Shown in pieces: positions 7,591 to 61,400 of a stretch of DNA of 64,000 nt. The notes under the pieces were generated by a model that was not told the origin of the DNA, ran no database searches, and was given only the letters and a program-made list of their open reading frames with translations. Each line of letters begins with the position of its first letter. The first letter of the stretch is position 1. A program made the translations under genes and the position numbers. Source of the DNA: an uncultured Candidatus Saccharibacteria bacterium (GTDB lineage Bacteria > Patescibacteriota > Doudnabacteria > UBA920); NCBI GenBank assembly GCA_964600695.1, contig CAZRKK010000001.1, positions 63,043 through 127,042 of the forward strand, in the 5' to 3' direction.

Positions 7591-8268
7591 ATGATTCAAT
7601 TCAAAAAAGTTACAAAATATTACGGCAACCATAAAGCCTTAAACAACATTAACCTCCAAATCGACCAGGGGGAGTTTATTTCTTTAGTAGGAATGAGTGG
7701 CGCAGGGAAGTCTACTTTAATGAAGTTAATTGTAGGAGAGGAAGAACTAGACGATGGTAGCATCCTAATCGACGACATAGACATGACTCGTATTCGCAAG
7801 AGTGATCTGCCTTATTTACGCAGAAAAATTGGGGTAGTTTTTCAAGATATAAAATTGCTTCCCCGTCGCACAGCTTTCGAGAATGTAGCTTTTGCGATGG
7901 AAGTTTCCGGTCACCGCAAGGAACAAATCAACAAAGATGTCCCTCGCATTTTAGATTTGGTAGGGTTAACTCATAAGAGCAATAATTTTCCTAACGAGAT
8001 GAGCGGTGGAGAAAAGCAACGAGTGGCAATTGCACGAAGCTTAGCTCATCGCCCAGTACTACTTCTTGCAGATGAACCAACTGGTAACTTAGACGAAGTC
8101 AACGCTGCAGAAGTAATCGATTTATTATTGAAGATCAATGAACTAGGCACCACTGTAATTTTAGCTACTCACGCTTCCGACTTAGTAAACAAAATTAAAC
8201 GACGAGTAATTACCATCGAAGGTGGTCAAGTAACCCTAGAACAACAAAAAGGAAAGTATAAACTGTAA
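7591..8268 (+). CDS. ftsE: cell-division ABC transporter ATP-binding protein FtsE
   Basis: Walker A (GMSGAGKST), ABC signature (LSGGEKQRVAIARSL) and Walker B (LLLADEPTGNLD), followed directly by an FtsX-like permease. Confidence 0.9.
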   Translation: MIQFKKVTKYYGNHKALNNINLQIDQGEFISLVGMSGAGKSTLMKLIVGEEELDDGSILIDDIDMTRIRKSDLPYLRRKIGVVFQDIKLLPRRTAFENVAFAMEVSGHRKEQINKDVPRILDLVGLTHKSNNFPNEMSGGEKQRVAIARSLAHRPVLLLADEPTGNLDEVNAAEVIDLLLKINELGTTVILATHASDLVNKIKRRVITIEGGQVTLEQQKGKYKL

Positions 8269-8273
8269 ACTCT

Positions 8274-9191
8274 ATGCGAGGATTAATTTCATTTTTTAGA
8301 ATCGTTAAAAGCGGTACTACTAATTTACGCCGCAACTTATGGCTCGCTGGAGCTTCTACTTTAGTAATGACAGTGACACTGATTATTTTGTCGGTGTTGA
8401 CTTTACTATTCATCATCACCAGCTATTCAGTAGCCTCTATTCAGCAAAGAGTTGATATTAGCGCCTATTTCAAGAGTGATGTTACCGAGGCTAAAGTTCT
8501 AACAATCCGGGATGAAATTAAGCAAGATTCCAGAATCAAAGAGATTAATTACGTTTCTTCAGATCAAGCCCAAGCAGCATTTAAAGAAAAACATAAAGGT
8601 GACCAATTAATAATCGACTCCTTAGGCGAACTTACAGAAAATCCTTTCCCAGCAACTTTGCAAATCAAAGCAACTAATTTGGAAGATTTTCCTGCTATAG
8701 CTGAATCACTCAACAGCGACAAGTACAAGAGTGTAATTCAAGAGGTAAACTTCGAAGACAACAGAGTTATTATCGAAAGACTAAACTCCTTATTAAAATT
8801 TATTATTACCTTTGGTTCGGTTCTAATGGTCGTGTTCTGTTTAATTGCAATTTTGGTAATGTTTAACACGATTGCTCTAACAATTTATAATCGCCGTGAG
8901 GAAGTCGAAATTATGAGACTTGTAGGTGCTACAAACTGGTATATCCGTGGTCCTTTTATTGTCGAAGCCTTCACATATAGTATTATCGCTGCCATTATCA
9001 CCAGCGCCTTACTAATACCGATCTATTTCAACATGCTTCCCAAGATCAGTAACTATCTTACCCCAGGAGCTAATATATTCAACGGTAATGTCACTGTATT
9101 CCTAGGTGTGATTGCTATTCAATTAGGTATCGCCTTTGTACTAAGCACAATCTCAAGCTTATTAGCCATGAGAAAGTACTTACGCATCTAG
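8274..9191 (+). CDS. ftsX: cell-division permease FtsX
   Basis: 305 aa with an N-terminal TM segment, a periplasmic domain, and three C-terminal TM segments (FtsX topology), immediately after ftsE. Confidence 0.85.
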   Translation: MRGLISFFRIVKSGTTNLRRNLWLAGASTLVMTVTLIILSVLTLLFIITSYSVASIQQRVDISAYFKSDVTEAKVLTIRDEIKQDSRIKEINYVSSDQAQAAFKEKHKGDQLIIDSLGELTENPFPATLQIKATNLEDFPAIAESLNSDKYKSVIQEVNFEDNRVIIERLNSLLKFIITFGSVLMVVFCLIAILVMFNTIALTIYNRREEVEIMRLVGATNWYIRGPFIVEAFTYSIIAAIITSALLIPIYFNMLPKISNYLTPGANIFNGNVTVFLGVIAIQLGIAFVLSTISSLLAMRKYLRI

Positions 9192-23861: not shown

Positions 23862-25184
23862 CTAGTTACCCAAAAACGTCATTGGGTTATAAGTATATCC
23901 TGATGGCACAGAATACGAACCATAAACATTTGAATACTTACCGGCAGTCACAGTGTAGCCGTCGCAATCAAAAATACTAAAATGCAAATGATAACCTCTC
24001 TCTGGACCATATAATAAACGAGTAGTATTTCCTGTATTACCTTCGTAACCGATCAAATCCCCTTTTTCTACAGCTGTACCTTTTTTAACTTTAACCGAAC
24101 GCATGTGAGCGTAGAGGCTAACAATACAACGCTTCCCAGACTTGGTTTCGATATTATGTTTAACTGTACACCAGTTGCCGTAAGCCGCTTCGCCTGTGTC
24201 ACAATTTGCCACTGTACCATCTGCTGCTGAGTAAATTGGTTTACCTGCTGGAGCTGCTATGTCGATACCATTATGGGAATTGTAGCCAAGTGACTTAAAG
24301 CCAGTGTTACCATATCCTTGCGTTAACACACCATCCATTGGCCAAGCCAAAACACCTTTACTAACAGAAATAGATTTTTTACCACCCTTTGACTGAGCAG
24401 CAGAATCGAGATCGCTTAGTTCCTCTAAAATTTTGTACTCTTCATTTTTAGTTTGACCCAATAGGTTCTGATAATTTTTTTCTGCGCCTTTAGTTTGTGC
24501 TAGCAATTGCTCTTTAGCACCTCGTTGGCTTTCTAAGGTGTCCTGACTGATATTTAATTGCTCTTTAAGAGATTGGAGTTTTGCTAAAGAGGCCTTTAAA
24601 TCTGCTTGTTGAGTTTCTAATTTCTTTTTAATTTCTTTGATTCGAGTGACTAATGAATAGACTTGATCCTGAACGCTACGCACATACTGAACCTGATCTA
24701 GGAAACTAGAAAAATCATCTGTGCCTAAACCAATTTGCAAAAATGAACTGTTATCCAACTTAGCTAATTGAACAATTAGCTGGGAGAGGATAGTTTTGTT
24801 TTCTTCGATTTCTTCTTGGCGACGTTGAATTTGGATTTCGAGTTCATTGATCTGTAAAGTTGTGTCTTCTGTCTGAGTGTTATTAGCTTCGATTTGCAAC
24901 TCTAAAGACTTTATCTGATTATCATAAATAGAAATTTCATTTTTCAAACTAGCTGCCTGGCTTCGGGTTTGACTGATTTGAGTTTGATAATTATTGATCT
25001 GATTCTTGAGCTGATCTAGCTTTAACTGAAGACGGTCTCGTTCGTTAGCGCTAAAAACTTTTGGCACAGATGGAGCAATAAAAACAGCCGCGACAGAAAT
25101 CGCAACAGTTAAAATAGTCATACCGACTAAAACCAATTTTTTGTTGGTTTTTGTTATTTTTGTTTCGAAGTTGGAGTTACTCAT
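23862..25184 (-). CDS. M23/LytM-family peptidase with N-terminal TM and long coiled-coil (EnvC-like)
   Basis: The C-terminal part carries HNGIDIAAP, LYAHM and GNTGNTTRLLYGPERGYHLHF. Upstream is an approximately 250-aa Q/L/E-rich coiled-coil. Confidence 0.8.
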   Translation of the reverse strand: MSNSNFETKITKTNKKLVLVGMTILTVAISVAAVFIAPSVPKVFSANERDRLQLKLDQLKNQINNYQTQISQTRSQAASLKNEISIYDNQIKSLELQIEANNTQTEDTTLQINELEIQIQRRQEEIEENKTILSQLIVQLAKLDNSSFLQIGLGTDDFSSFLDQVQYVRSVQDQVYSLVTRIKEIKKKLETQQADLKASLAKLQSLKEQLNISQDTLESQRGAKEQLLAQTKGAEKNYQNLLGQTKNEEYKILEELSDLDSAAQSKGGKKSISVSKGVLAWPMDGVLTQGYGNTGFKSLGYNSHNGIDIAAPAGKPIYSAADGTVANCDTGEAAYGNWCTVKHNIETKSGKRCIVSLYAHMRSVKVKKGTAVEKGDLIGYEGNTGNTTRLLYGPERGYHLHFSIFDCDGYTVTAGKYSNVYGSYSVPSGYTYNPMTFLGN

Positions 25185-25247: not shown

Positions 25248-26813
25248 TTATGATAATAAATTTATTGCCTTATTTAAGCGTTTTATAACAGCGTCTTTGC
25301 CGCCATTTAAGCTCAAACAGCTAGCTACCTCGAATGGGCTCGGACTCTTCGCAAGCCCGGTTAAGGCTACACGCATAGGCCAAAGCACATTGCCGGTCTC
25401 GTAGCCCTGTTCGGAAATCCATGCCTTAACTTTCTCTTCCAAAATTGAAGTCGAAGCAAGGTCTGAATCTGGTAGGTTTGATAGAAATTCGACTAGACTA
25501 GAAAGTTTCTGAACAGCATCGGCTTTGTCAGCTTTTTTCCAAATCAGCATTTCTGGAGTGGAATCTTCAGAATCAAACTTTGGCGCATCGACAAAATAAA
25601 AATCTGTATTCTCTGTAATTTGCGAAAGGGTTTTGAGACGTTCTTTTTCGATATTAATCATGGCTAGTAAAAACTCTGATGGGAAACTAGATAACTCTAT
25701 CCCCTGCTCTGCCAAAAACGGTTTTAGCCAAGGCTCAACTAATTGTAAAAGTTCTTGGTTAGATTTTTCTTTAATGTAACTGGCGTTCATCCAGTCTAGT
25801 TTATTCACATCAAAGACAGCACCCGCCTTGTTAACCTTAGCAAGATCAAAGGCCTCGATCAGTCCATCCATAGAAAAAATTTCTTGTTCAGTTTTAGGAT
25901 TCCAACCTAGTAATGCCACAAAGTTAACTAGTGCTTCTGGTAAGTAACCTTTTTGCAAAAAGTCTTCAACAGAAACATCACCTTGACGTTTAGACAATTT
26001 GGTTTTGTCCGGATTCAAAATTAACGGCAAATGAGCAAAAGCAGGTGGTGTCCACCCAAAAGCTTGGTACAACAATAAATGCTTAGGTGTAGATGGAATC
26101 CACTCTTCAGCCCTAATTACATGAGTGATTTCCATATAATGATCGTCAATAACAACAGCTAAATGGTAAGTAGGAAAACCATCCGACTTTAATAAAACTT
26201 GGTCATCTAATAAATTGTGTTCGTATGCAATATCGCCGTAGACTAAATCGTGAATAACAGTTTGTCCTTGATCTGGATTTGCCTGACGGATAACCGCATT
26301 AGGATTTTCTTGTAATTTAGCAGTGACCTCTTCTGCAGAAAGTTTCTTACAATGACGATCGTACATTGGCGGCTTCTTTAAAGCCACTTGCTCTTTGCGA
26401 AGTTCATCTAAACGTTCCTGTGAACAAAAACAATAATAAGCTTTCCCCTGCTCTACTAATTGTTTGGCGTGACTTTGATACATACCCAAACGCTCTGATT
26501 GCACATAAGGACCAACATCGCCCTTAAACTTTATAGTTGCAGAATCAAAATTTACACCGTCATAATTTTCTAAGTAAGCACCTTCATCAAAAGACACTCC
26601 CATTTTAGACATTACAGCTAAGAGATTTTCTACAGCGCCATCTGTTTTACGAGTTTGATCTGTGTCTTCGATTCGCAAAATATTCACACCATTAAAATGC
26701 CGCGCATACAAAAATGCAAACAAGGCGGTGCGAAAATTGCCAACATGAACAAACCCTGTTGGGCTAGGAGCAAAGCGTGTGCGAACTTGTTTATTTTGTG
26801 TGGAGTCTGTCAT
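25248..26813 (-). CDS. gltX: glutamyl-tRNA synthetase
   Basis: RFAPSPTGFVHVGNFRTALFAFLYAR (HIGH-type HVGN), LRIEDTD and TKLSKRQG (KMSKS). Confidence 0.88.
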   Translation of the reverse strand: MTDSTQNKQVRTRFAPSPTGFVHVGNFRTALFAFLYARHFNGVNILRIEDTDQTRKTDGAVENLLAVMSKMGVSFDEGAYLENYDGVNFDSATIKFKGDVGPYVQSERLGMYQSHAKQLVEQGKAYYCFCSQERLDELRKEQVALKKPPMYDRHCKKLSAEEVTAKLQENPNAVIRQANPDQGQTVIHDLVYGDIAYEHNLLDDQVLLKSDGFPTYHLAVVIDDHYMEITHVIRAEEWIPSTPKHLLLYQAFGWTPPAFAHLPLILNPDKTKLSKRQGDVSVEDFLQKGYLPEALVNFVALLGWNPKTEQEIFSMDGLIEAFDLAKVNKAGAVFDVNKLDWMNASYIKEKSNQELLQLVEPWLKPFLAEQGIELSSFPSEFLLAMINIEKERLKTLSQITENTDFYFVDAPKFDSEDSTPEMLIWKKADKADAVQKLSSLVEFLSNLPDSDLASTSILEEKVKAWISEQGYETGNVLWPMRVALTGLAKSPSPFEVASCLSLNGGKDAVIKRLNKAINLLS

Positions 26814-26865: not shown

Positions 26866-28206
26866 TTATGCGTTTTTTTCAAGCGCTTCCGTTAGCTCAG
26901 CGACGACTTTTTTTAGATGATCTTGACGTGGACCAGAAACTACGGATTGAGCTTTATCTAAATCGACCCATTGCCATCGACTAAAAACTTTTGGATCTAA
27001 AATTATTTCTGAATCTTGACCAGTAAATCTAAAAAAGGCTGTTTGTTGCTTTTGACCTCGAAACAATCTTTTAGTACTGAACAAACCTCGAATACCGTTT
27101 GGCCAGTCGAAAGTATTAATATGCTTAGCGGTTCCCAAGTATTGCACTGAAGAAATGTTGACCTCTTCTTTTAATTCTCGCAGCGCAGAAGCTTGTAAAT
27201 CCTCACCAGGTTTAACACCTCCCTGTGGAGGAAGCCATTCACCTTGTGGGTTATATCTTTGCGCATAACCAACCTTAGAAATTTTGTTTGGGTTATTCTC
27301 GCATAATAAAATTTGATTTTGATTGTTGATGACAATAATCGAAACATTATTACGGTAGCCATAACTAGAAAAGACTTTGTACCGTACTAAAGAAAGGATT
27401 AAACCCCAAGTAGCTCGATAAATTCTAGGTAATCGACTAGGTTGTGTTACTAAACGAAACAACCATTCCAACCCAATTGATCGAATCCAAACAGGTGGTG
27501 GAGTCTTAAAACCAGAAGCATAATCAAAAGTCCCTCCGACCCCCATCGCAACTGTAACAGGTAAATTTTTTAAATGATTGGCAATCCATTGCTCTTGCTT
27601 AGGTTGGCCATAAGCTAAAAATAAAAGATCCGGTTTCGCCTGCTGAATATCCTCAAGTAAGGACAAGTTGTTCCAGTTTTTTCTAGACAATCCCACTATC
27701 TGCAATCGAGGATATCTTTCTTTAAGTAACTCTGCAGTTTTTTCTGCAGAATCACTGCGGTGATTTACAAAATAGACAGTCTTGTTATTTTCAGATGCCA
27801 ATTTGATTAAATCAAAAAACACATCTGCTCCAGTAATCTTCTCTGGTATATTTTTATACAAATAACTAGGTGTGAGCAAAATCCGAGCCCCAGAAACTAC
27901 AACATGCGCCCAAGTCTCTATGATCTTGCCCCAAAAACCAGTCGAACGAAGGGGAATGTCTAAGTATCGCTCTGCCCACATTATTGCTATACCATCTGCC
28001 AAAGCAATGTCGGCAGAATTAAATAAATCTCGCAATGAAGACTCAGTCAAACTTGCGTACAAAAACTCCGAATTAGGTGTAGTAATAAAAGTTTGCTGTT
28101 TTGATTCCAGCAAACTTTTGACTTCCGACAAAAATTGAGATTTTGTAATTGCGGAAATATTTAAATTAGCAACTAAAACTTTATGAATCATAAATTTATT
28201 TGTCAC
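26866..28206 (-). CDS. fusion protein: WecB/TagA/CpsF-family glycosyltransferase (N) + NUDIX hydrolase (C)
   Basis: The N-terminal half carries ADGIAIMWA, VGLSRK, LLFLAYGQPKQEQW and GLEWLFRLVTQPSRLPRIYR (PF03808-like). The C-terminal 150 aa carry the Nudix box GGVKPGEDLQASALRELKEEVN. Confidence 0.7.
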   Translation of the reverse strand: MTNKFMIHKVLVANLNISAITKSQFLSEVKSLLESKQQTFITTPNSEFLYASLTESSLRDLFNSADIALADGIAIMWAERYLDIPLRSTGFWGKIIETWAHVVVSGARILLTPSYLYKNIPEKITGADVFFDLIKLASENNKTVYFVNHRSDSAEKTAELLKERYPRLQIVGLSRKNWNNLSLLEDIQQAKPDLLFLAYGQPKQEQWIANHLKNLPVTVAMGVGGTFDYASGFKTPPPVWIRSIGLEWLFRLVTQPSRLPRIYRATWGLILSLVRYKVFSSYGYRNNVSIIVINNQNQILLCENNPNKISKVGYAQRYNPQGEWLPPQGGVKPGEDLQASALRELKEEVNISSVQYLGTAKHINTFDWPNGIRGLFSTKRLFRGQKQQTAFFRFTGQDSEIILDPKVFSRWQWVDLDKAQSVVSGPRQDHLKKVVAELTEALEKNA

Positions 28207-29074
28207 TTTCTAAACATCTATTAAAAGAGTTAACCTGAGAATTATAATCATTAACCAACGCTTTGGTTTTATCTATCAACACATTGAGTGCATCTGCTCG
28301 GCGGTTGTACTCTGCAACTGCATTATCATATTCTTCTCGGGTTCGATACTTATTAGCTTCGATCTGCTTCTTTAACGTAGCTAAAGAGGTTTCTTCTGCT
28401 TGAATACTTAAACGGTTTTGTTCAATTTGAGATTTTATACCTGCACCAGGATTTGGACAGCTAGATGATGGTGTACCAAACTCTTGAACAGCCAGCCAAA
28501 CTTCTTTACCTTCAAACATTCCCTTCCCTACTGCTACGCCAATTTCTTCAAATTTACCATCTAAAATATTAGCGCGGTGACCAGGGCTATTCATCCAGGC
28601 CTCAACCAATACTTGGTCATTTTCGTAATTACCCAAAGCAAGGTTTTCGCCTACAACTAAGTAATCATAGCCAGTGGCTTTAATTACATCTGCAGGATGT
28701 TTACCATCAGGTGATTCATGTTCAAAATACTGCTGACGAAACATATCATCCAGCTTAGCTTTAGCTGCCAAATTCAACTTTGAGTTTGTATGCAAAGGTG
28801 TCTTACTGTATAGCTCGCGCTGTTTATTAGTTTGTTCTACCACCCCAGACAGGGTTAAATTGCTATACCCCTCTAATGGACCACGCAACGGGCCAGACAA
28901 GGACTCTGGCAAGGCGACTTGATCCATAAATCCTTTAAAATTTTGGTCACTTTTCACCCAATTTCCAAAACGTTGAGGTAATCCTTCTAAGATTGCTATC
29001 CCAACAAATACGACTATTAATAAAATTGACCAAAATTTACTCATATATTCACAATTATACCTAGAAATAAGCAA
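28196..29074 (-). CDS. CAP/SCP (YkwD-like) domain secreted protein with C-terminal coiled-coil
   Basis: An N-terminal TM/signal sequence, then CAP motifs GENLALGNY...WMNSPGHRANIL...EIGVAV, then a K/E/Q-rich helical tail. Confidence 0.65.
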   Translation of the reverse strand: MLISRYNCEYMSKFWSILLIVVFVGIAILEGLPQRFGNWVKSDQNFKGFMDQVALPESLSGPLRGPLEGYSNLTLSGVVEQTNKQRELYSKTPLHTNSKLNLAAKAKLDDMFRQQYFEHESPDGKHPADVIKATGYDYLVVGENLALGNYENDQVLVEAWMNSPGHRANILDGKFEEIGVAVGKGMFEGKEVWLAVQEFGTPSSSCPNPGAGIKSQIEQNRLSIQAEETSLATLKKQIEANKYRTREEYDNAVAEYNRRADALNVLIDKTKALVNDYNSQVNSFNRCLESDK

Positions 29075-29866: not shown

Positions 29867-30400
29867 ATGAAGTTAATTAAAGATATATTAATCTTTCAAA
29901 TTGAAGCCACTGGAACAGATGTTGAGCGCGATCATATCATTCAACTTTCTGGAATACTTTTAGATAAAGATAGTTTACTAGAAAAAAACTTTTTTAATTC
30001 ATATATTAAAGTTAGTTTTTTAGATGGCACTGTTCAAGCCCATGCTAATCATTTAGGTATTACTTTCGATCAACTCCGTAAGAGTCCAAAACTGGCTGAG
30101 ACCATCAAGAACTTTGTAAATACTTTTGGTTATGAACCATTACTAGCAACACAGTCTGTACCAAACTACTTATTTCTCAAGCAAGCCTTTAAAAAGACTC
30201 TAACCCCGTTTAATTACGACAAGCATTTATTAGATATCTGGTCGCTAAGCTACATCTACATTATTCATTATGGAATAAAAAAGATTCCTACTCTGCAAAC
30301 TATGGCCACTCATTTTAATCTAAAACTTTCTCGAGCCAATGATGCTCTAGCCAAAGCACGTTTAACAGCAGAAGTTTTTAAAAAAATTATTAACGGTTAG
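29867..30400 (+). CDS. DnaQ-like DEDD 3'-5' exonuclease domain protein (paralog 1, degenerate Exo II)
   Basis: Exo I is FQIEATGTD and Exo III is ANDALAKARLTAEVF (H-x4-D absent, N present). The Exo II region YLFLKQAF lacks the Asp. Confidence 0.55.
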   Translation: MKLIKDILIFQIEATGTDVERDHIIQLSGILLDKDSLLEKNFFNSYIKVSFLDGTVQAHANHLGITFDQLRKSPKLAETIKNFVNTFGYEPLLATQSVPNYLFLKQAFKKTLTPFNYDKHLLDIWSLSYIYIIHYGIKKIPTLQTMATHFNLKLSRANDALAKARLTAEVFKKIING

Positions 30401-30413
30401 AACTTATAAACTT

Positions 30414-30977
30414 ATGTTCCATAAAGATATTTTAATTATTGATGTAGAAGCCACAGGCTTAGACTACCAAAACAACGAGCTCATTCAGTTAGCTGGAGTT
30501 TTGTTAGACAAAAAAACTTTGAAAGAGAAGAAGCACTTTGAATCATTAATTAAACCAGTAAAATGGCGGAATCGCGACCCAGAAGCTATGGCTGTTAACA
30601 AAATCGACTGGAAAGATTTAGCAAAAGCTCCGTCTTTAAAAACAGTTATCGGAAAGTTCGAAAAAACTTTTGGAACCAATGTTATTCTGGCACCATACGG
30701 CACAATCATGGACACAGCTATGTTGCGCGTAGCTTACAAGAAACTTGGTAAGCAATACAAATACGATTACCATGTGTTTGATGTTTGGCCACTCTGTTTT
30801 ACTTACATGGCAAAAAAGAAATTATTAGTAAACAAAAAACGTTTTTCTGGATTTTCATTAAATGATATTGCTAACCATTTCAAAATTAAAGTCCCAACTA
30901 ACCGACACACTGCTTTAGCTGATTGCCGTCTCGAAGCTGAAGTCCTCCGCAAACTTGTTAAAGCATTTAAAGTTTAA
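30414..30977 (+). CDS. DnaQ-like DEDDh 3'-5' exonuclease domain protein (paralog 2)
   Basis: Exo I is IIDVEATGLD, Exo II is PYGTIMDTAML and Exo III is HTALADCRLEAEVL. Confidence 0.65.
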   Translation: MFHKDILIIDVEATGLDYQNNELIQLAGVLLDKKTLKEKKHFESLIKPVKWRNRDPEAMAVNKIDWKDLAKAPSLKTVIGKFEKTFGTNVILAPYGTIMDTAMLRVAYKKLGKQYKYDYHVFDVWPLCFTYMAKKKLLVNKKRFSGFSLNDIANHFKIKVPTNRHTALADCRLEAEVLRKLVKAFKV

Positions 30978-35788: not shown

Positions 35789-37270
35789 TTATTTTGAAAC
35801 CCATTTTTGTTTCACACCACTTTGAAAATATTTACGGTGCCCATTTTCCCATAAAATAACCTTAGGCTTTACTCGTTTTACCCCAATCATCTTGGTTAGC
35901 TCTCTAAATTCTGAACTAGCGTCTAACAAAGCCTTAATTACATACTGTTCCAATTTAGTTTTAAGAGCTTTGTTATTCTTTTTACCTTTTATTAACTCTA
36001 TGTTAACTTCTAAATATTGATCGTGACGTTTATTGTACTTAGTGAGTAGATTAAATTTCCCAGTAATTTGGCTGAAAAAAATCTTATTCTCTAAAGCCTG
36101 CTTAATAGTTTGAGGGTAAACCTGTAAGCCATAAATTGTAGTGGAAAAATCTGCCCTTTCATAGATATAAACAAAAGGTAGTTCGAAAAGTTTTATACCT
36201 AATCTATTTGCTTCCTTTATCAAGTCTAACCCTAACTCTTTAAATTTATTTTTCACTTCTTCATAATGATAAACACCTCCGTTATCACCGATATCATACC
36301 GAATTAAATTGGTCGAACTATGACCGGAAATTAGTATTCGTTTTTGTTTGATTTCAAAGTTTGTAAAACGTGGATCATATTGAACCAACGTAGGGATTTT
36401 TTTATCTTCAAAGAAACTATCGTGTAAATCTGGGTTACTCAATATCAATTTTCTAATCAAAATAGTGCCGGGATTCTCGAAAGCCATAGCCCCTAACTCA
36501 GCACTACCGTAAATATTCATGGTGTCATAATATGCGCTCTGAATTCCACATTTTTCTACTAAATAATCCCTAAACTTTTCGGTAAAACTTTCTGCAGCAA
36601 AGACCAGCCTTATAGGGATTTTTTTAAGATCTATACCCATTAATTCTGATTCATCGACAATATCCTTTATGAATGGCGGATAGCCACTAAGTATAACGTT
36701 ATCAAACATTGGTGCGAGTTTTTGTAAAGCATTGAATATTTCTTTTTTATTTATCCCTGGAGTAATTATTGTAACGGGATTACCACGCAATGATGCCATG
36801 CGAAAAGCTTGATAAGTAATCAAGCCACCTATCCAAACTCCCATGCCGAAACAATTAATGAGTAAAGTTGATCCTTTTTTCCCATTATTTAAAAAGTTTT
36901 CTGCAATGATTGAGTAGTGGTAATCGACTAACTCATCTCTTAAAAAATATGTCGGTTCAGATGTAGAACCAGAGGTTGAAGTCAGGACAAACCCTTTTTT
37001 CTTCAATTGTTCTTTGGGGAGTATTGATTGAAGGCTATATTTTTTAAAAAAGTCTTTTTTATTGACCTGAGGAACTTCTGAAGAATCAAATTTTTTGGGA
37101 AATTTATATTTTTTCCTTACTAAAAAATCTCGATAGTTCGGTATCGATTTAATTATCTCTAAGAATAATTTTTTTATATTCTCCTTTTGCTGTCTAACCC
37201 AAAAGCCCTGCTTTTTTACTGACCACTCGGCTATAACTTGTTTAGAATCGATAAATTTAGGTGTTGGCAT
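35789..37270 (-). CDS. PaaK/F390-synthetase-like adenylate-forming enzyme
   Basis: LTSTSGSTSEPTYF aligns with the PaaK P-loop SSGTTGKPT. GMGVWIGGL aligns with GYGLFTGGL. RLVFAAESFTEKFRDYLVEKCGIQSAYYDTMNIYGSAELG aligns with the PaaK A8 region. The P-loop Lys is replaced by Glu. Confidence 0.6.
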   Translation of the reverse strand: MPTPKFIDSKQVIAEWSVKKQGFWVRQQKENIKKLFLEIIKSIPNYRDFLVRKKYKFPKKFDSSEVPQVNKKDFFKKYSLQSILPKEQLKKKGFVLTSTSGSTSEPTYFLRDELVDYHYSIIAENFLNNGKKGSTLLINCFGMGVWIGGLITYQAFRMASLRGNPVTIITPGINKKEIFNALQKLAPMFDNVILSGYPPFIKDIVDESELMGIDLKKIPIRLVFAAESFTEKFRDYLVEKCGIQSAYYDTMNIYGSAELGAMAFENPGTILIRKLILSNPDLHDSFFEDKKIPTLVQYDPRFTNFEIKQKRILISGHSSTNLIRYDIGDNGGVYHYEEVKNKFKELGLDLIKEANRLGIKLFELPFVYIYERADFSTTIYGLQVYPQTIKQALENKIFFSQITGKFNLLTKYNKRHDQYLEVNIELIKGKKNNKALKTKLEQYVIKALLDASSEFRELTKMIGVKRVKPKVILWENGHRKYFQSGVKQKWVSK

Positions 37271-38291
37271 GTTTTGATATAAAGGTTTTTTCTACTATCT
37301 TATTAGCTATTCTATCCATGGACTCACTAGAATTCATAGAACTCAAATATACTCTCTTCAATGTGGGTTTTAACTTACTAATATTTCGCAATACTCGAGA
37401 TTTCTTATACCCACCTGCAAGCAATTCATCTGCGACATTAAGAACACCTCCGGCATTAGCAATGTAGTCGGGCACGTGCAGAATACCCTTTAATTTCAAC
37501 TTATCGGATAATTTAATATCACCGAGCTGATTATTAGCTGTACCTATAATCATTTTACTACATATTTGATTAATATTCTTCTTATTTATATCATTTCCCA
37601 TTGCGCAGGGAGCGAAGATGGTAAATTCGTATTTTTCAAATTTCTTTAAGGGTAAGTATGTAGCTTTGGGATACTTTTTTTTAACAATATTTATCCTACT
37701 CTGGTCTATGTCATAATAGAAAACTCTGGCTTTATCTTTTTGTAATAGTCTTAATAATTCAATTCCAGTTTTTCCAACACCCTTTATTCCTATACTTACA
37801 CTCTTAAGAGTCTTAAGTTTTAGGTGTAATTGTGTCATCCATTTGATACAGTAATAAGCACTTAAGGCCGCAAACTCTGATGGATCACCTGCTTGACCAG
37901 CCTTGCCAATAAAATAAGGTGAGTACTTCAACATCCTTTGAACCTGCTTGAAGGTTAATCCCACATCTTCTCCAGTATAAAATCTTCCATTTAACTTCTT
38001 AACTTGTTGCGCATAATTTCTTAGTATCTGGTCCAACTTAGAACTTTTGGGATCCGCAATTATCACACCCTTACCACCGCCAAACTTCAAACCAGCAATA
38101 CAGGTTTTATAAGTCATTGCTTTTGATAATCTTTTTGCATCAAGTAATGCAGATTTTTTATCCTTATAATTGAAAATTCTAGTACCGCCAAGAGCTGGAC
38201 CCAGTTTTGTATTAAACAAAACGATATAACCTTTCAATGGATACTCTTTATCTTTGGATAAATCAATTATTTTTTCTGGTCGATTTTTCAT
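37257..38291 (-). CDS. Glu/Leu/Phe/Val dehydrogenase-family amino-acid dehydrogenase (short Leu/Phe/Val-type)
   Basis: GPALGGTRIFNY...KTCIAGLKFGGGKGVI is the catalytic-Lys motif. An NAD Rossmann GIKGVGKTG is also present. Confidence 0.7.
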   Translation of the reverse strand: MKNRPEKIIDLSKDKEYPLKGYIVLFNTKLGPALGGTRIFNYKDKKSALLDAKRLSKAMTYKTCIAGLKFGGGKGVIIADPKSSKLDQILRNYAQQVKKLNGRFYTGEDVGLTFKQVQRMLKYSPYFIGKAGQAGDPSEFAALSAYYCIKWMTQLHLKLKTLKSVSIGIKGVGKTGIELLRLLQKDKARVFYYDIDQSRINIVKKKYPKATYLPLKKFEKYEFTIFAPCAMGNDINKKNINQICSKMIIGTANNQLGDIKLSDKLKLKGILHVPDYIANAGGVLNVADELLAGGYKKSRVLRNISKLKPTLKRVYLSSMNSSESMDRIANKIVEKTFISKHANT

Positions 38292-39355
38292 TTAAGCAAA
38301 TAATCATCGAAAACAATTCTAGTACGACCACTTTTAATTTTTTCTCCCAATATAATTTTCCTAGCTATCATTGCCGCAATACCACCTCCGATTGTTACGG
38401 TACTCATTAACTGTGGTCTCCCTACTAAAGTTTTATTAACTTGCATGACTGAATCCAAAACCCGTTTTGGAACATTTTGTATACCAACAATTTGAACAGC
38501 ATACTTTTGCTTATCTGCTTCTGTGATAGGTTTTGATAAAATATCCTTCGCTGCGTTGCCAATTAAACCATTGAAAACCTGAACATTTTTTTCTGTATCA
38601 TACCTTTCTATATCAATCAGTAAACTATCTCCTAAATTAGTTAACATCACGACAGGTACCTTAGACTTTTTTGCTTCTAGTCGAATACGAATCTTCATTT
38701 CAAAGTCATCAATGGCTTCAAAAATTACTTGGGGTTTATGCTTCCCATTAAGGAACTTGTCTAACTCTTTAGCTTTTAGACCGTTCTGGTATAAATCTAA
38801 TTTTATATATGGATTAATCTCATATATCTGTTGGGAGGTTATTTCAATCTTAGGTTTACCTACATAACCTATTCCTGCGCGAATTCTATTTAAATTAGAA
38901 GTAGATAATACATCAAAGTCTGACATCTTAATTACTCCACCAACACCCGTATATGCCATACTTACAGCCATAGCGTTGCCGATTGATAGCCCAACAACTC
39001 CCACCACTGATTGGGATAATTTTTTTTGCTCTTCCGAAGTGATAATATTTTGGTTACGGTTGGTATGAATGATTTCATACTGGTTCTTGTTGACCATATG
39101 TATCAATTGACCATTCCAAGGGTAAAAAATCCAATCCCCTAAATTGGACCTATCCTTACTGCTAGTAGAATTTATAAATTCCCGAGACTTCTTTGCAAAA
39201 TCAGGGTCAAACTTTTCTGATGGGTGTTCAATTTCATATAACTCTTCCAGTTGCTCTTTATAAAGATCAATTACCTCTCTTACCTTTGTAGACTTTTTAA
39301 GCTTGGTAATTTCAGTAAAAGAATATTTATTTTCTCTAAATATAATTGGTTTCAT
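38288..39355 (-). CDS. ThiF/MoeB/E1-like adenylyltransferase-fold protein with N-terminal extension
   Basis: VVGVVGLSIGNAMAVSMAYTGVGGVIKMSDFDVLSTSNLNRI is the E1-like nucleotide-binding motif (GxGxxG...D.D.V..SNLNR). About 110 aa of unknown N-terminal sequence precede it. Confidence 0.6.
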   Translation of the reverse strand: MKPIIFRENKYSFTEITKLKKSTKVREVIDLYKEQLEELYEIEHPSEKFDPDFAKKSREFINSTSSKDRSNLGDWIFYPWNGQLIHMVNKNQYEIIHTNRNQNIITSEEQKKLSQSVVGVVGLSIGNAMAVSMAYTGVGGVIKMSDFDVLSTSNLNRIRAGIGYVGKPKIEITSQQIYEINPYIKLDLYQNGLKAKELDKFLNGKHKPQVIFEAIDDFEMKIRIRLEAKKSKVPVVMLTNLGDSLLIDIERYDTEKNVQVFNGLIGNAAKDILSKPITEADKQKYAVQIVGIQNVPKRVLDSVMQVNKTLVGRPQLMSTVTIGGGIAAMIARKIILGEKIKSGRTRIVFDDYLLK

Positions 39356-39356
39356 T

Positions 39357-40370
39357 TTATTTCATTACTTTTTTTAGATCTAGTCTAGGAGTGAATATTG
39401 GTTTCTTATCTGCGTATCCAATTCTAAAAAACATCTGAGGCCTTAAGTTTGTATTTAAGACTTTCTGTAAATCCTTATAATAGTCGCCAATCTCAGTAGG
39501 TGCTGCCATCACGGCATACTTTAAATTCTGCTTAGTTGCTTCTAAAACTATTTTCTCAAATAACTCCCCAACTGCTAACCAGTCTTGGACATCATCACCT
39601 TTTGAACTAATTACAATAACCGCTGGACTATGTTGTAGCCATAGCTTATGACGTCCCATCTGTAATTTTGCAGTGTTGAAAGTTCTGATGATAAATGGAA
39701 TAAAAAATGATAATAGTTTTGGGAAACCTAAATTATAAGCAGGCATGCCATCTCGGTATTTTTGAAGGCTTGGCCGTACCCAATCTGCTGCCTCTTTAGA
39801 AAAATCTTTATTAGAAAAGGCTACGTCTGTTGACTCCACTACTATATCTGTGATTTTGTCTAATTTATTTTTTTCAGTCACTACAAAGCTATGTAGATTT
39901 TCTGTGTCCCAAGTCTTAATTAAATTAATGAAATCCTGAGGCAGTGTTTGTTCAGTGTATAATTCTCTATTGTTATGTCTGTCCAAAATTGCTTGCAAAT
40001 CCGTACGATTCACTATTGAATTACTTTTTAGATTAGAAAATTTAACGGTGACCTTAAAATTTTCTAGATTACCAGTATTGTAATGGGTTTCAAACTCTAG
40101 ACCATATGCTAAGGCAGCTATTTTAAAATTATAAACCGCAGCACCAATGCTAATGGTCACTTGCCTACCTACAAAATCTGAAAAAGGCAAGATTCGATCC
40201 CGATTTGCAGTAATCTCTACACCTTGATCTATTAACTTAAAAAACCACGGTTGAACATTTCTAGTTGATGGGGCTAGGTGCGCATACCGCAATAAAAATT
40301 CTAACTTTTCACTATTTTCACTAAGTTTTAAGAAATCCTCAGGAATAATATTATCTCTAAGAGGTTTCAT
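39357..40370 (-). CDS. two-domain nitroreductase-superfamily (SagB/McbC-like) putative FMN dehydrogenase
   Basis: RYAHLAPSTRNVQPWFF is the nitroreductase motif. The 337-aa length implies duplicated halves as in SagB-type dehydrogenases. It lies 2 nt from the E1-like gene. Confidence 0.6.
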   Translation of the reverse strand: MKPLRDNIIPEDFLKLSENSEKLEFLLRYAHLAPSTRNVQPWFFKLIDQGVEITANRDRILPFSDFVGRQVTISIGAAVYNFKIAALAYGLEFETHYNTGNLENFKVTVKFSNLKSNSIVNRTDLQAILDRHNNRELYTEQTLPQDFINLIKTWDTENLHSFVVTEKNKLDKITDIVVESTDVAFSNKDFSKEAADWVRPSLQKYRDGMPAYNLGFPKLLSFFIPFIIRTFNTAKLQMGRHKLWLQHSPAVIVISSKGDDVQDWLAVGELFEKIVLEATKQNLKYAVMAAPTEIGDYYKDLQKVLNTNLRPQMFFRIGYADKKPIFTPRLDLKKVMK

Positions 40371-40456
40371 ATGATTAAATTCATAAGAATCAATAACTAC
40401 TAAAAAAATACCATGGCAATATAATTTCTCCTTTTAATTATACCACATTTAAATAA

Positions 40457-40484
40457 AATCACTTGCATATGCAAGTGATTTTGG
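40457..40484 (-). terminator. perfect palindrome AAAATCACTTGCATATGCAAGTGATTTT between HAL-like gene and nitroreductase gene
   Basis: 12-bp perfect inverted repeat with no loop or a 2-4-nt loop. The minus-strand sequence after it is TGtGGTATAAT plus an AAGGAG RBS and a 4-codon mini-ORF. Confidence 0.5.
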
Positions 40485-40491
40485 ATAATAA

Positions 40492-42000
40492 CTATTTTGA
40501 TTTAATTGCTTTCGACAGGCTCTCTATAAATGGGTAAAATACGGAATCTTTCTCGAAGAAAGGCACGACTTGCCGAATCTGATTATGTATCTGCTGGGTG
40601 CCGAAACCAGGCTTAAGTGGGTTTCTGATATCTACAGCCTGAGCTGCACAGATTAACTCTATAGTTATGATTTGGTAAACCATTTCTATAATATCTCGAC
40701 ACTTTCTAGAAGCTGTTGTGGCAAAGCTTACATAATCTTCCTGGTTAGCAGAAGTTGGTATGGAATCAATAACTACTGGATGAGCAAGTACCTTGATTTC
40801 TGCAAGCATTGCAGCTGCAGTATATTGCAAAATCATAAACCCACTATTCAAACCAGTTTGATGGGTTCCAATCAAATATGGAGGAAGACCATTATTGTGA
40901 TTAGAATCCATAAACTTAGCAGTACGTCGTTCAGAAATATTTGCAAGCTCAGTGAGTGCTATAGACAATGAATCCATAACGAGACCTATTGGCTCACCAT
41001 GGAAGTTACCACCGGATATAATATCTCCACTTTCTGGAAAGACTAAAGGATTGTCTGTAACTGAATTTAACTCCACTTCTACAACAGAGGTAACATACTC
41101 GAGTATTTGTTTGACTGGTCCATGAACCTGAGGGGAACATCTTAGTGAGTAAGAATCTTGAACACTATTGTATCCATTATCTGGACCAACTAGCTGACTC
41201 CCTTCGCACAATTCTCTAATTATTCTAGCTGTTTCAATTTGTCCTTTATGTGGGCGAATTTCATGGACCCTTTTATCGAAAGCTGTTAAGGTTCCTCGCA
41301 TACCTTCTAAACTTAAAGCTAAGCTCTTATCAGACCAGTGAATGATATTTTTCGCGTCGTATACATTCAGACTCGCAACAGCAGTTAAAAAAGCAGTGCC
41401 GTTATTTAAAGCCAGGCCTTCCTTTGCTTGCAACTTTAATGGAGTAAAGTCGTAAGCATACATCGCATCTTTTGTGAGTTTTCTTTGACCATTCACAATT
41501 AGCTCCCCTTCACCCATGATTACTAATGCTAAATGGGAAAGCGGTGCTAAATCTCCACTAGCCCCACAGGAACCACGCTCAGGAATATATGGATAAATTC
41601 CCTTATTTAAAATTTCCAAAAACTTTTCTACTAATTCTAATCGTACGCCTGAGTGGCCGTTTGCCAATGAGTTAGCCCGAATTAAAATAGCAGCCCTTAC
41701 CTCAGCTTCCGAAAAGGGTGACCCAGTACCCGCAGCATGACTACGGATTAAATTTTCTTGTAATTCTTCAAGCTGGGTTTGATCTATGCTTTTGTCCTTT
41801 AAACTACCAAAGCCGGTATTCAGACCATATACGATCTTACCGGCTTTGATTATGTCTTCTACAACTTTACGCGATTTTAAAATAGCAGTCTTTGCCTCTA
41901 CAGACAAAACTATATGATAATGCTTATGATGAGCAATGTCGTGAACCAAATCGATTGACAGGCTCTTGCCGTCTATCTCTATGGTTTTTACGTGGTCCAT
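40492..42000 (-). CDS. MIO-dependent aromatic amino-acid ammonia-lyase/aminomutase family (histidine ammonia-lyase-like)
   Basis: The MIO-forming tripeptide lies within GSCGASGDLAPLSHLA. YGLNTGFG is present. The selectivity positions read S-H (IRSHAAGTG) as in HutH. Confidence 0.8.
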   Translation of the reverse strand: MDHVKTIEIDGKSLSIDLVHDIAHHKHYHIVLSVEAKTAILKSRKVVEDIIKAGKIVYGLNTGFGSLKDKSIDQTQLEELQENLIRSHAAGTGSPFSEAEVRAAILIRANSLANGHSGVRLELVEKFLEILNKGIYPYIPERGSCGASGDLAPLSHLALVIMGEGELIVNGQRKLTKDAMYAYDFTPLKLQAKEGLALNNGTAFLTAVASLNVYDAKNIIHWSDKSLALSLEGMRGTLTAFDKRVHEIRPHKGQIETARIIRELCEGSQLVGPDNGYNSVQDSYSLRCSPQVHGPVKQILEYVTSVVEVELNSVTDNPLVFPESGDIISGGNFHGEPIGLVMDSLSIALTELANISERRTAKFMDSNHNNGLPPYLIGTHQTGLNSGFMILQYTAAAMLAEIKVLAHPVVIDSIPTSANQEDYVSFATTASRKCRDIIEMVYQIITIELICAAQAVDIRNPLKPGFGTQQIHNQIRQVVPFFEKDSVFYPFIESLSKAIKSK

Positions 42001-49748: not shown

Positions 49749-49813
49749 ATTTTTAAGATTAGTAACTAAAAACTACCCGCAGGATAACCTTTGGGTAGTT
49801 TTATTATATCACT

Positions 49814-57681: not shown

Positions 57682-57771
57682 ATTTCCCTCTTCTTCAGTT
57701 GTAATAGAACAAAGCAAAGAATAACACGTTTTCTGTTTTCTGTCAACCAAATATCCATATAAACATTGGTC

Positions 57772-57812
57772 AAAAAAAACAGTGGAACCAAATCTTGGTA
57801 TCCACTGTTTTT
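57772..57812 (-). terminator. strong rho-independent terminator after rpsI (AACAGTGGA...TCCACTGTT + T8 on the minus strand)
   Basis: Perfect 9-bp stem. The plus-strand AAAAAAAA before it becomes a U8 tract on the minus strand. Confidence 0.75.
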
Positions 57813-57852
57813 AAAATATATATTAACGTTTTGCTCTTCCAAACGTGCAAAA

Positions 57853-58422: not shown

Positions 58423-58423
58423 A

Positions 58424-58855: not shown

Positions 58856-58882
58856 ATATTCTTCTATCTGATTATTGGCAAT

Positions 58883-59227: not shown

Positions 59228-59252
59228 ATAATTATAATTAAATTCTTAAGCC

Positions 59253-60221: not shown

Positions 60222-60287
60222 AATGCCCCTTTTTACTGTTCGCTTTGTCCAAAAATCATGTGTCTGCGAAGAGTAGATTAATTAATA

Positions 60288-60896: not shown

Positions 60897-60899
60897 ATA

Positions 60900-61397: not shown

Positions 61398-61400
61398 AGT

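What the first reader, a model, noticed from the sequence alone, without database searches (positions are those of the whole stretch)
26866..28206. Fusion of a WecB/TagA-family glycosyltransferase with a NUDIX hydrolase
The N-terminal 290 aa carry the WecB/TagA/CpsF motifs (ADGIAI..., LAYGQPKQEQW, GLEWLFRL..RLPRIYR). The C-terminal 150 aa carry a canonical Nudix box (GGVKPGEDLQASALRELKEEVN). TagA-type enzymes use UDP-ManNAc-type donors, and a fused Nudix domain could hydrolyse the nucleotide-sugar or released NDP. I am not aware of this fusion being described. The gene overlaps a CAP/SCP-domain secreted protein by 11 nt.
Basis: seen in the sequence. Interest (0 to 1): 0.5.

Follow-up and report, generated by a model that had tools for sequence, protein, structure and literature searches.

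The report
TagA glycosyltransferase fused to RppH-type Nudix
A real, conserved gene of ultra-small Patescibacteria joins a cell-wall-polymer glycosyltransferase to an RppH-like pyrophosphatase, most likely because two neighbouring genes merged, so the fusion alone is weak evidence that the pyrophosphatase works on the sugar-nucleotide.

Summary
One uninterrupted ORF encodes a GT26 WecG/TagA domain (Pfam 156 bits) followed by a Nudix domain (64 bits). All TagA catalytic residues and the Nudix box are intact. The true start is probably the ATG at 28191 (441 aa), so the claimed 11-nt overlap with the CAP gene is a 4-nt gap.

The fusion is not an artefact or a one-off. I collected 86 distinct full-length fused proteins, and 24 of the 80 best GTDB species loci have it. 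All named sources are Patescibacteria.

The interpretation needs revising. The Nudix half belongs to the RppH/NudH clade (RNA 5'-pyrophosphohydrolase / ApnA hydrolase), not to nucleotide-sugar hydrolases. It sits in a fixed slot, TagA-[Nudix]-GltX-M23 peptidase. In that slot the same Nudix clade also occurs as a separate gene (L092), fused to a LigT 2H phosphoesterase instead (Kerfeldbacteria), or absent.

The likeliest reading is a merger of adjacent genes that gave a bifunctional, membrane-peripheral protein with an autonomous Nudix module. Hydrolysis of TagA's UDP product remains possible but unproven. The window's own copy lacks one Mg ligand (E120 equivalent is V402). I found no description of this fusion in the literature. 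Interest is moderate.

The parts
26866..28191 (-). Full CDS of the fusion protein (441 aa from ATG 28191; stop 26866-26868). The longest ORF extends to GTG 28206.
27367..28191 (-). GT26 WecG/TagA/CpsF glycosyltransferase half (aa 1-275). Catalytic D66 and donor-contact residues N40 and Q199.
   Evidence: residue roles from PMC8784642
27859..27951 (-). About 31-aa two-helix insertion in the GT core (aa 81-111) relative to T. italicus TagA. Typical of the 'long' Patescibacteria clade.
27367..27492 (-). TagA C-terminal tail (aa 234-275) with invariant E242, W243, R246, R253 and R256 (TiTagA E210, W211, R214, R221, R224). It continues as one long helix (251-275) into the Nudix domain.
26869..27360 (-). 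RppH/NudH-clade Nudix hydrolase half (aa 278-441).
27154..27222 (-). Nudix box (aa 324-346, GGVKPGEDLQASALRELKEEVNI). E330, R338, E339, E342 and E343 are invariant in all 50 fused members in the alignment.
26986..26988 (-). Codon for V402, aligned to the Mg ligand E120 of E. coli RppH. It is E in 36 of 50 fused homologues and is lost in this protein's own subclade.
   Evidence: role of E120 from PMC7144940
28196..29044 (-). Upstream membrane-anchored CAP/SCP-domain gene (probable ATG start, 282 aa). It lies 4 nt from the fusion gene and is a conserved neighbour in the Doudnabacteria-like clade.
25248..26813 (-). Glutamyl-tRNA synthetase gene, the conserved immediate downstream neighbour of TagA, TagA-Nudix, LigT-Nudix and the split Nudix.
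23862..25184 (-). Coiled-coil M23 peptidase (PcsB/EnvC-like), the third conserved member of the cluster.

Best explanation
The gene encodes one 441-aa, two-enzyme protein. It formed when two neighbouring genes of a conserved Patescibacteria cluster (TagA - Nudix - GltX - M23 peptidase) merged.

Shown: the N-terminal half is a complete GT26 TagA/WecG-type glycosyltransferase. It includes the C-terminal tail that in TagA binds the membrane and closes the active site. The C-terminal half is a complete Nudix hydrolase of the RppH/NudH clade. Both halves keep their catalytic residues across the family and are under purifying selection.

Inferred: the GT half works like TagA. At the cytoplasmic face of the membrane it transfers a ManNAc-type sugar from a UDP-sugar onto a polyprenyl-PP-GlcNAc acceptor, making the linkage unit of a wall-attached glycopolymer. 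The Nudix half is a catalytically autonomous Mg-dependent pyrophosphohydrolase of the RppH/ApnA-hydrolase type. It acts on 5'-di/triphosphorylated RNA ends or (di)nucleoside polyphosphates. Through the fusion it is held at the membrane and made in 1:1 ratio with TagA.

The fusion is therefore mainly a product of operon compaction, not evidence that the Nudix domain processes TagA's sugar-nucleotide.
For: Domain identity: Pfam and TIGRFAM scores are above cut-offs. Foldseek gives TM 0.90 to TagA 7mpk/5wfg and 0.80 to E. coli RppH. PDB sequence hits are TagA at 6e-27, lupin Ap4A hydrolase at 5e-15 and RppH at 3e-11.

Catalytic residues: the TiTagA D65, E210, W211, R214, R221 and R224 equivalents are in 52/52 sequences, and Q167 in 51/52 (roles from PMC8784642). 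The Nudix E44, R52, E53, E56, E57 and R8 equivalents are in 50/50.

Selection: dN/dS is 0.12-0.16 for the GT half and at most about 0.34 for the Nudix half.

Fixed slot: GT(+/-Nudix)->GltX->M23 holds in all 24 fused and 29 unfused genome loci and in distant clade B.

Neighbour-merger origin and autonomy: L092 has a TagA-type ORF with its own stop, then a separate Nudix ORF overlapping it by 23 nt, then GltX. In Kerfeldbacteria, LigT-Nudix lies directly upstream of GltX->M23 (L090), and a second LigT-Nudix is followed by GltX (L091). The clade of TagA-fused, LigT-fused and solo Nudix has 81% bootstrap against proteobacterial-type RppH, and the TagA-fused members are never exclusive (0/100). Unfused TagAs nested among fused ones have nothing in the Nudix position.
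Against: The fusion has been kept over a deep radiation, down to about 25% identity, which suggests some benefit from the physical linkage.

AlphaFold gives pTM 0.88 for the whole two-domain chain. That implies a fixed mutual orientation rather than beads on a string. The Nudix starts directly after the tail whose arginines hold the UDP diphosphate.

The nucleobase pedestal of RppH (V137/F139) is not conserved in this clade, so RNA recognition as in E. coli is not assured.

Scores fall below NCBIfam's RppH equivalog cut-offs (100 vs 116 bits).

No substrate was tested. The NJ trees are simple distance trees.
Confidence: 0.55

Rival explanations
1. Catalytic coupling. The Nudix domain hydrolyses the UDP released by the GT half (UDP -> UMP + Pi), or trims the UDP-HexNAc donor pool. 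This would relieve product inhibition or set flux into the wall-polymer linkage unit.
For: The fusion is long-lived, with both active sites conserved. The whole-chain model is confident (pTM 0.88), and the Nudix starts right after the tail arginines that bind the UDP diphosphate. E. coli RppH hydrolyses NDPs including UDP, and prefers diphosphate ends (PMC7144940). It can also cleave UDP-sugar caps (PMC12541447). The altered base pedestal (F139 -> E/P) suggests substrate recognition different from E. coli RppH.
Against: The same Nudix clade, in the same slot, works as a separate gene or is fused to LigT without any TagA domain. It was lost repeatedly while TagA stayed, with no replacement at the locus. 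It is not related to known NDP-sugar Nudix enzymes (TM 0.58 to GDPMH). The altered pedestal is shared by the LigT-fused and solo forms, so it is not an adaptation to TagA. This window's copy lacks a Mg ligand.
Confidence: 0.2
2. Regulatory link between the envelope and RNA. The GT half modulates an RppH-like RNA 5'-end hydrolase, as DapF does for E. coli RppH. Alternatively, it recognises UDP-HexNAc caps on RNA and presents them to the Nudix site for decapping.
For: The Nudix half is closest in structure to E. coli RppH, including chains taken from RppH-DapF complexes. DapF, a peptidoglycan-precursor enzyme, binds and stimulates RppH (abstracts of PMC6061855 and PMC6061791). RppH removes GlcNAc and glucose caps in vitro. 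The alternative partner, LigT, is an RNA-end enzyme.
Against: All GT catalytic and acceptor-binding residues are invariant, so the GT half is an enzyme and not merely a binding module. There is no evidence for sugar-capped RNA in these organisms. The Nudix module is dispensable in many relatives.
Confidence: 0.08
3. In this particular organism the Nudix half is catalytically weakened or decaying, a passenger domain on its way to loss.
For: The E120-equivalent Mg ligand is V402 here, and no nearby Glu exists in P0001-P0005 (role of E120). The Nudix half evolves 2-3 times faster than the GT half. P0038 and P0039, nested in the same subclade, have lost the domain entirely.
Against: All Nudix-box residues, R280, Q323, G379 and Q380 are intact. 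dN is well below the saturated dS against L004, and omega is 0.34 against L005. There are no nonsynonymous differences in the Nudix half against the 99% relative. The domain is confidently folded.
Confidence: 0.12
4. Assembly or sequencing artefact: a missed stop or frameshift joins two separate genes.
For: One relative (L092) does have two overlapping ORFs in different frames.
Against: I found 86 distinct full-length fused proteins from NCBI, JGI, ENA and Logan assemblies, with a conserved junction. There are 24 fused GTDB species loci. A continuous helix is modelled across the junction.
Confidence: 0.01

Closest known systems
TagA/TarA (GT26), e.g. Thermoanaerobacter italicus TagA (PDB 5WB4, 5WFG, 7MPK, 7N41)
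   Same: Same fold (TM 0.90). Same catalytic Asp, Gln and Thr-Pro-Asn motif. Same C-terminal tail with the E-W-R...R..R residues needed for catalysis and membrane association.
   Different: It has a roughly 31-aa two-helix insertion in the core and a Nudix domain attached directly to the end of the tail. It scores far below the TarA equivalog cut-off (126 vs 350 bits). The ManNAc-contact Asn is Tyr in 34 of 52 family members. No TagO or MnaA genes are nearby.
E. coli RppH (NudH/YgdP) and plant-type Ap4A hydrolase (Lupinus, PDB 1F3Y)
   Same: These are the best sequence and structure matches. Shared features are the YRxN N-terminus, the PQGG...Nudix box, the GQxQ motif and the W of the FxxWxW motif. 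The phosphate-binding residues are conserved as R8, Q37, Y77 (F), Q95 and K140 (R).
   Different: It is fused to a glycosyltransferase. The base-stacking pedestal V137/F139 is replaced (F139 is E in 35 of 46 clade-A members and P421 in the query). There is a roughly 13-aa insertion in the first hairpin. E120 is missing in this copy. Scores are below the NCBIfam RppH cut-offs.
E. coli RppH-DapF complex
   Same: An RppH-type Nudix enzyme physically associated with a cell-envelope precursor enzyme (PDB 6D13, 5YGU; abstracts).
   Different: That association is non-covalent and the partner is an epimerase. Here the link is covalent and the partner is a GT26 transferase. No regulatory effect has been shown here.
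LigT(2H phosphoesterase)-Nudix fusion of Kerfeldbacteria (e.g. MBI5465919.1 = P0338)
   Same: Same Nudix clade (81% bootstrap for the joint clade). Same genomic slot, immediately upstream of GltX->M23.
   Different: The N-terminal partner is an RNA 2',3'-cyclic phosphodiesterase-type domain instead of TagA.
WcaH/Gmm GDP-mannose mannosyl hydrolase (Nudix enzyme of the colanic-acid cluster)
   Same: Precedent for a Nudix enzyme that acts on the sugar-nucleotide of a surface-polysaccharide pathway (established knowledge).
   Different: It is a different Nudix clade (TM 0.58, 19% identity). It is a separate gene, not a fusion, and it cleaves the glycosidic bond rather than the pyrophosphate (own knowledge).

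Membership tests
GT26 WecB(WecG)/TagA/CpsF glycosyltransferases | Profile match above curated thresholds (PF03808, TIGR00696) | tested here: met
   155.9 bits vs 27.4, and 120.2 bits vs 69
GT26 WecB(WecG)/TagA/CpsF glycosyltransferases | TagA-type (GT-E) fold | tested here: met
   AF2 model pLDDT 92.8. Foldseek to 7mpk/5wfg gives E 4e-14 and TM (target) 0.90-0.91
GT26 WecB(WecG)/TagA/CpsF glycosyltransferases | Catalytic base Asp65, and tail residues E210, W211, R214, R221, R224 | tested here: met
   D66, E242, W243, R246, R253 and R256 are invariant in 52/52 (roles from PMC8784642)
TagA/TarA sensu stricto (UDP-ManNAc:lipid-alpha ManNAc transferase) | ManNAc-specificity contacts N39 and Q167 | tested here: inconclusive
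   The query has N40 and Q199. Across the fused family the N39 position is Y in 34/52, and Q167 is conserved in 51/52
TagA/TarA sensu stricto (UDP-ManNAc:lipid-alpha ManNAc transferase) | NCBIfam equivalog score (NF041710, cut-off 350) | tested here: not met
   126 bits. Only family-level assignment is justified.
TagA/TarA sensu stricto (UDP-ManNAc:lipid-alpha ManNAc transferase) | Transfer of ManNAc from UDP-ManNAc to undecaprenyl-PP-GlcNAc | not testable with these tools
   Needs an enzyme assay. No TagO/WecA or MnaA gene is among the window ORFs scanned; ORFs 57678-61790 were not scanned.
Nudix hydrolase superfamily | PF00293 above the gathering score, and Nudix box GX5EX7REUXEEXGU | tested here: met
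   63.9 bits vs 21.1. The box at aa 324-346 is intact except G->N at position 345. E330, R338, E339, E342 and E343 are invariant in 50/50
RppH/NudH (RNA pyrophosphohydrolase / ApnA hydrolase) clade | Closest sequence and structural relatives are RppH or plant-type Ap4A hydrolase | tested here: met
RppH/NudH (RNA pyrophosphohydrolase / ApnA hydrolase) clade | NCBIfam RppH equivalog cut-offs | tested here: not met
   Best is NF001938 at 100.3 bits vs 116. The other models fall further below
RppH/NudH (RNA pyrophosphohydrolase / ApnA hydrolase) clade | Mg ligands Q37, E53, E57, E120 | tested here: not met
   Q323, E339 and E343 are present. The E120 equivalent is V402 in the query (E in 36/50 fused relatives)
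RppH/NudH (RNA pyrophosphohydrolase / ApnA hydrolase) clade | Phosphate-binding residues R8, Y77, Q95, K140 | tested here: met
   R280, F361 (Y in most relatives), Q380 and R422 (roles)
RppH/NudH (RNA pyrophosphohydrolase / ApnA hydrolase) clade | Base-binding cleft R27 / V137 / F139 that reads RNA nucleotide 2 | tested here: not met
   V137 -> A/H/S and F139 -> E/P. R27 is R in most relatives, but the alignment is ambiguous in the query
RppH/NudH (RNA pyrophosphohydrolase / ApnA hydrolase) clade | Hydrolysis of pp/pppRNA 5' ends or Ap4A/Ap5A | not testable with these tools
   Needs an enzyme assay
Nucleotide-sugar Nudix hydrolases (GDPMH/WcaH, NudK, UDP-sugar diphosphatases) | Closest relatives or fold neighbours are NDP-sugar hydrolases | tested here: not met
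   GDPMH 1rya has TM 0.58 and 19% identity, ranked below all RppH entries. No NDP-sugar hydrolase model appears among the NCBIfam hits

The most novel reading that the evidence does not exclude
The covalent TagA-RppH pairing could be a functional bridge between envelope-precursor chemistry and RNA 5'-end metabolism. In one version, the GT26 half binds UDP-HexNAc-type caps on transcripts and hands them to the Nudix site, making a dedicated sugar-cap decapping enzyme. In another, occupancy of the GT site by UDP-ManNAc or lipid acceptor gates the RppH-like activity, a hard-wired version of the DapF-RppH partnership. My evidence does not exclude either: the Nudix is RppH-like, RppH can remove GlcNAc and glucose caps in vitro, and the two domains are modelled in a fixed orientation.
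Probability: 0.07. Interest if true: 0.8.

Novelty: new variant of a known kind. Interest (0 to 1): 0.35.

Why it matters
Patescibacteria have tiny genomes, and almost nothing is known experimentally about their envelope synthesis or RNA turnover.

A widely conserved gene that welds a TagA-type enzyme to an RppH-type enzyme is a convenient experimental handle. It can be expressed as one soluble or peripheral protein, and both activities have established assays.

If the domains turn out to be coupled, through UDP removal or through control of RNA 5'-end processing by envelope precursors, that would be a new regulatory principle.

If they are not coupled, the locus is a clean, datable example of operon compaction. 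It shows separate, fused, partner-swapped and lost states of one module in one genomic slot. It is also a warning against reading function from 'Rosetta-stone' fusions in streamlined genomes.

Practically, these proteins are annotated only as glycosyltransferases, so the only recognisable RppH-like enzyme in this region goes unreported.

Tried and rejected
1. Frameshift or misassembly: rejected (see rivals).

2. Search for a pre-fusion state among 80 GTDB loci: Nudix ORFs near unfused TagA in L058, L069 and L084 turned out to be other Nudix types (MutT-like and NUDT2-like boxes, no PQGG/GQxQ), so they are uninformative.

3. 'Stand-alone' members inside the fused clade: P0295 proved to be a fused gene truncated by the contig end. 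The upstream frame reads FKVFRS and GltX follows. Several others start with V or lack the N-terminus and are probably fragments. Only P0349, P0290 and P0365 were verified as separate genes.

4. The word-index homology search with the Nudix half alone returned only proteobacterial-type RppHs and none of the fused proteins. The exhaustive search was needed.

5. Looked for TagA pathway partners (TagO/WecA, MnaA, LCP) in the window: none among the roughly 54 ORFs scanned; the ORFs between 57678 and 61790 were not scanned.

6. Second Nudix gene in the window: none.

Model coordinates are not exposed, so the distance and orientation between the two active sites could not be measured.

8. Literature searches for Nudix+TagA, Nudix+WecG and Nudix+LigT fusions, and the Nudix-clan survey PMC5389931: no description of this architecture.

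9. dN/dS against the 99%-identical relative was uninformative for the Nudix half, with only one difference.
Full report
**1. What is in the sequence**

- Pfam finds PF03808 (Glyco_tran_WecG, 155.9 bits, cut-off 27.4) and PF00293 (NUDIX, 63.9 bits, cut-off 21.1).
- NCBIfam adds TIGR00696 (120 bits, cut-off 69). For the C-terminal half it lists a series of RNA-pyrophosphohydrolase (RppH) models. The best is NF001938 at 100 bits, just under its equivalog cut-off of 116.

The upstream gene is a CAP-domain protein, and the downstream genes are GltX and a coiled-coil M23 peptidase.

The likely start is the ATG at 28191, not the GTG at 28206. Homologues are 438-444 aa, and independent gene calls in L004 and L007 begin at the equivalent Met. 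This leaves a 4-nt spacer after the CAP stop codon instead of an 11-nt overlap. Residue numbers below refer to the 441-aa protein.

**2. Not an artefact, not a singleton**

A search of 5.8 billion proteins returned about 54 clusters with the same two-domain architecture, from 99% down to 25% identity. The named sources are Doudnabacteria, Magasanikbacteria and 'Patescibacteria group'.

An exhaustive search with the Nudix half alone added more. These include a 'short' form of 394-411 aa that also combines PF03808 and PF00293. In total I hold 86 distinct full-length fused sequences.

Among the 80 best loci from GTDB species representatives, 24 have both domains in one ORF. The closest is 66% identical to the query.

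The junction is conserved as (L)V(R/K)YK.F.S..YR.N. AlphaFold2 on a 52-sequence alignment gives mean pLDDT 92.8 and pTM 0.88. A single helix (251-275) runs from the TagA tail into the first Nudix strand.

**3. The GT half**

It aligns with Thermoanaerobacter italicus TagA (7mpk, E 6e-27), and the model superposes on it with TM 0.90.

The residues shown to matter in TagA (PMC8784642) map as follows:

| TiTagA residue | Role | Query residue | Conservation in fused family |
|---|---|---|---|
| D65 | general base | D66 | 52/52 |
| Q167 | ManNAc contact | Q199 | 51/52 |
| E210, W211, R214, R221, R224 | C-terminal tail | E242, W243, R246, R253, R256 | 52/52 each |
| N39 | ManNAc contact | N40 | N in 18/52, Tyr in 34/52 |

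Because the N39 position varies, the donor sugar cannot be fixed from sequence.

Relative to TagA there is a roughly 31-aa two-helix insertion (aa 81-111). The TarA equivalog threshold is not reached (126 vs 350 bits). The safe assignment is 'GT26 family, TagA-like mechanism'.

A sortase and a 1962-aa SpaA-like surface protein in the window fit a Gram-positive-type wall. No TagO or MnaA gene turned up among the ORFs scanned.

**4. The Nudix half**

The best PDB sequence matches are the lupin Ap4A hydrolase (5e-15) and E. coli RppH (3e-11). Structurally, RppH is the top Nudix match (TM 0.80), while GDP-mannose mannosyl hydrolase reaches only 0.58. The closest named stand-alone relatives are alphaproteobacterial RppHs.

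Conserved across the family (E. coli RppH numbering):
- The Nudix-box residues E44, R52, E53, E56 and E57, plus R8, G94 and W126, are invariant in all 50 fused members in the alignment.
- Q37, Q95 and K140 (as R) are nearly invariant.

In RppH these residues bind the Mg cluster and the substrate phosphates (PMC7144940).

Two differences stand out:
- The base-stacking pedestal V137/F139 is replaced (mostly A/H and E).
- In the query's own subclade the fourth Mg ligand, E120, is V/T/I. It is V402 here, against E in 36 of 50 relatives.

The Nudix half diverges faster than the GT half, for example 52% vs 81% identity to P0002. It is still under purifying selection. dN/dS is about 0.34 against L005, and against L004 dN is 0.40 with dS saturated. 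The GT half gives 0.12-0.16.

**5. Genomic context and history**

The order GT -> GltX -> M23 peptidase is conserved:
- in all 24 fused genome loci and in 29 unfused loci, most of them labelled Patescibacteria;
- in the Doudnabacteria-like relatives of the query;
- in the distant Magasanikbacteria-type clade at 28% identity.

In unfused relatives, GltX follows the GT gene directly, with nothing in the Nudix position. A GT-domain tree shows these unfused forms interleaved with fused ones. Nudix-domain trees group the fused domains of all clades together.

Three further states of the same slot were found:
- **Split (L092):** a TagA-type ORF ends with its own stop. A separate 170-aa Nudix ORF of the same clade overlaps it by 23 nt in another frame, and GltX follows.
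- **Partner swap (L090, L091):** in Kerfeldbacteria the Nudix domain is fused to a LigT/2H phosphoesterase domain instead. In L090 this gene lies directly upstream of GltX -> M23; in L091 GltX follows and the contig ends within it.
- **Solo elsewhere (L089, L093):** true stand-alone genes at other locations.

The joint clade of TagA-fused, LigT-fused and solo Nudix domains has 81% NJ bootstrap support against proteobacterial-type RppH. The TagA-fused domains are never an exclusive group (0/100). The altered pedestal motif, (H/F)P.R, is shared by all three architectures.

**6. Interpretation**

The data fit a Nudix gene resident between TagA and GltX in a tightly packed, conserved cluster. In different lineages it has been merged with its upstream neighbour, given a different N-terminal partner, or deleted.

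This makes the Nudix module functionally autonomous. Together with its RppH/NudH affiliation and the LigT partnership, it favours a nucleotide or RNA-5'-end pyrophosphohydrolase role. A role dedicated to TagA's sugar-nucleotide is less likely.

Coupling is not excluded:
- The linkage is old.
- The predicted inter-domain geometry is confident.
- The Nudix begins right after the tail arginines that hold the UDP leaving group.
- RppH hydrolyses UDP and other NDPs, weakly at pH 7.0-7.5 and nearly completely at pH 8.0.
- RppH also removes UDP-sugar caps.

My probabilities are:

| Reading | Probability |
|---|---|
| Autonomous RppH/NudH-type enzyme tethered to TagA | about 0.55 |
| UDP or UDP-HexNAc hydrolysis coupled to the GT | about 0.20 |
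| Weakened or decaying domain in this lineage | about 0.12 |
| Envelope-to-RNA regulatory link or sugar-cap decapping | about 0.08 |
| Artefact | about 0.01 |

**7. Novelty and score**

Both families are well known. The fusion sits in public databases under a GT-only name, and I found no paper describing it. I rate it a new variant (domain architecture) of known kinds, of moderate interest (0.35).

The most interesting product of this check is the series of states of one module in one genomic slot: separate, TagA-fused, LigT-fused and lost. A secondary point is that the RppH-like enzyme of these organisms is hidden inside a 'glycosyltransferase' annotation.

**8. Limits**

- No enzyme assay was possible.
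- Trees are neighbour-joining on BLOSUM distances.
- Whole-genome phyletic profiles could not be built with the locus-limited data.

Noticed in passing
window 26866-28191 vs L007 2558-3883: Against the 99%-identical relative, the GT half has 25 nucleotide differences (20 synonymous, 5 not) and the Nudix half only 1. This mosaic divergence suggests a recent recombination breakpoint inside the gene.
   Followed up: no
window 27859-27951 (-), aa 81-111: A roughly 31-aa insertion forms two confident helices in the GT26 core, relative to T. italicus TagA. It is shared by fused and unfused members of the 'long' Patescibacteria clade and absent from the 'short' fused forms.
   Followed up: partly
window 28196-29074 (-): CAP/SCP-domain protein with an N-terminal membrane anchor. 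The C-terminal ~90 residues (heptad-like, charged) look like a coiled coil by eye; this was not tested. The probable start is ATG 29044 (282 aa). It is conserved immediately upstream of the GT gene, with a gap or overlap of only a few nt, in the query's clade but not in clade B. Its function is unknown.
   Followed up: partly
window 29867-30400 and 30414-30977 (+): Two tandem RNase_T-type 3'-5' exonuclease paralogues sit between def and fmt. The arrangement is conserved in L001-L005.
   Followed up: no
window 49143-55702 (-): A 1962-aa surface protein with SpaA/SdrD-type domains lies next to a sortase gene, consistent with a Gram-positive-type wall.
   Followed up: no
window 35789-42000 (-): A run of five genes: aromatic amino-acid ammonia-lyase, nitroreductase-like, ThiF-like, Glu/Leu-dehydrogenase-like, and a 493-aa ORF without a Pfam hit. 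This is an unusual small-molecule or modification cluster for a reduced genome.
   Followed up: no
window 7591-9191 (+) and 23862-25184 (-): FtsE/FtsX and a coiled-coil M23 peptidase (PcsB/EnvC-like) are both present. The M23 gene is the third fixed member of the TagA-GltX-M23 cluster across Patescibacteria.
   Followed up: partly
L090 8001-9011; L091 2719-3702: LigT(2H phosphoesterase)-Nudix fusion proteins in Kerfeldbacteria-type genomes occupy the slot upstream of GltX. I found no description of this architecture either.
   Followed up: partly
P0286 (427 aa): An RppH-like Nudix domain fused N-terminally to an alpha/beta-hydrolase domain, another architecture turned up by the exhaustive search.
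   Followed up: no
tool behaviour, vs 54: The word-index homology search with the Nudix half alone returned none of the fused proteins, not even the 99%-identical one. The exhaustive representative search did. Negative results from the indexed search should be treated with care for sub-domain queries.
   Followed up: yes
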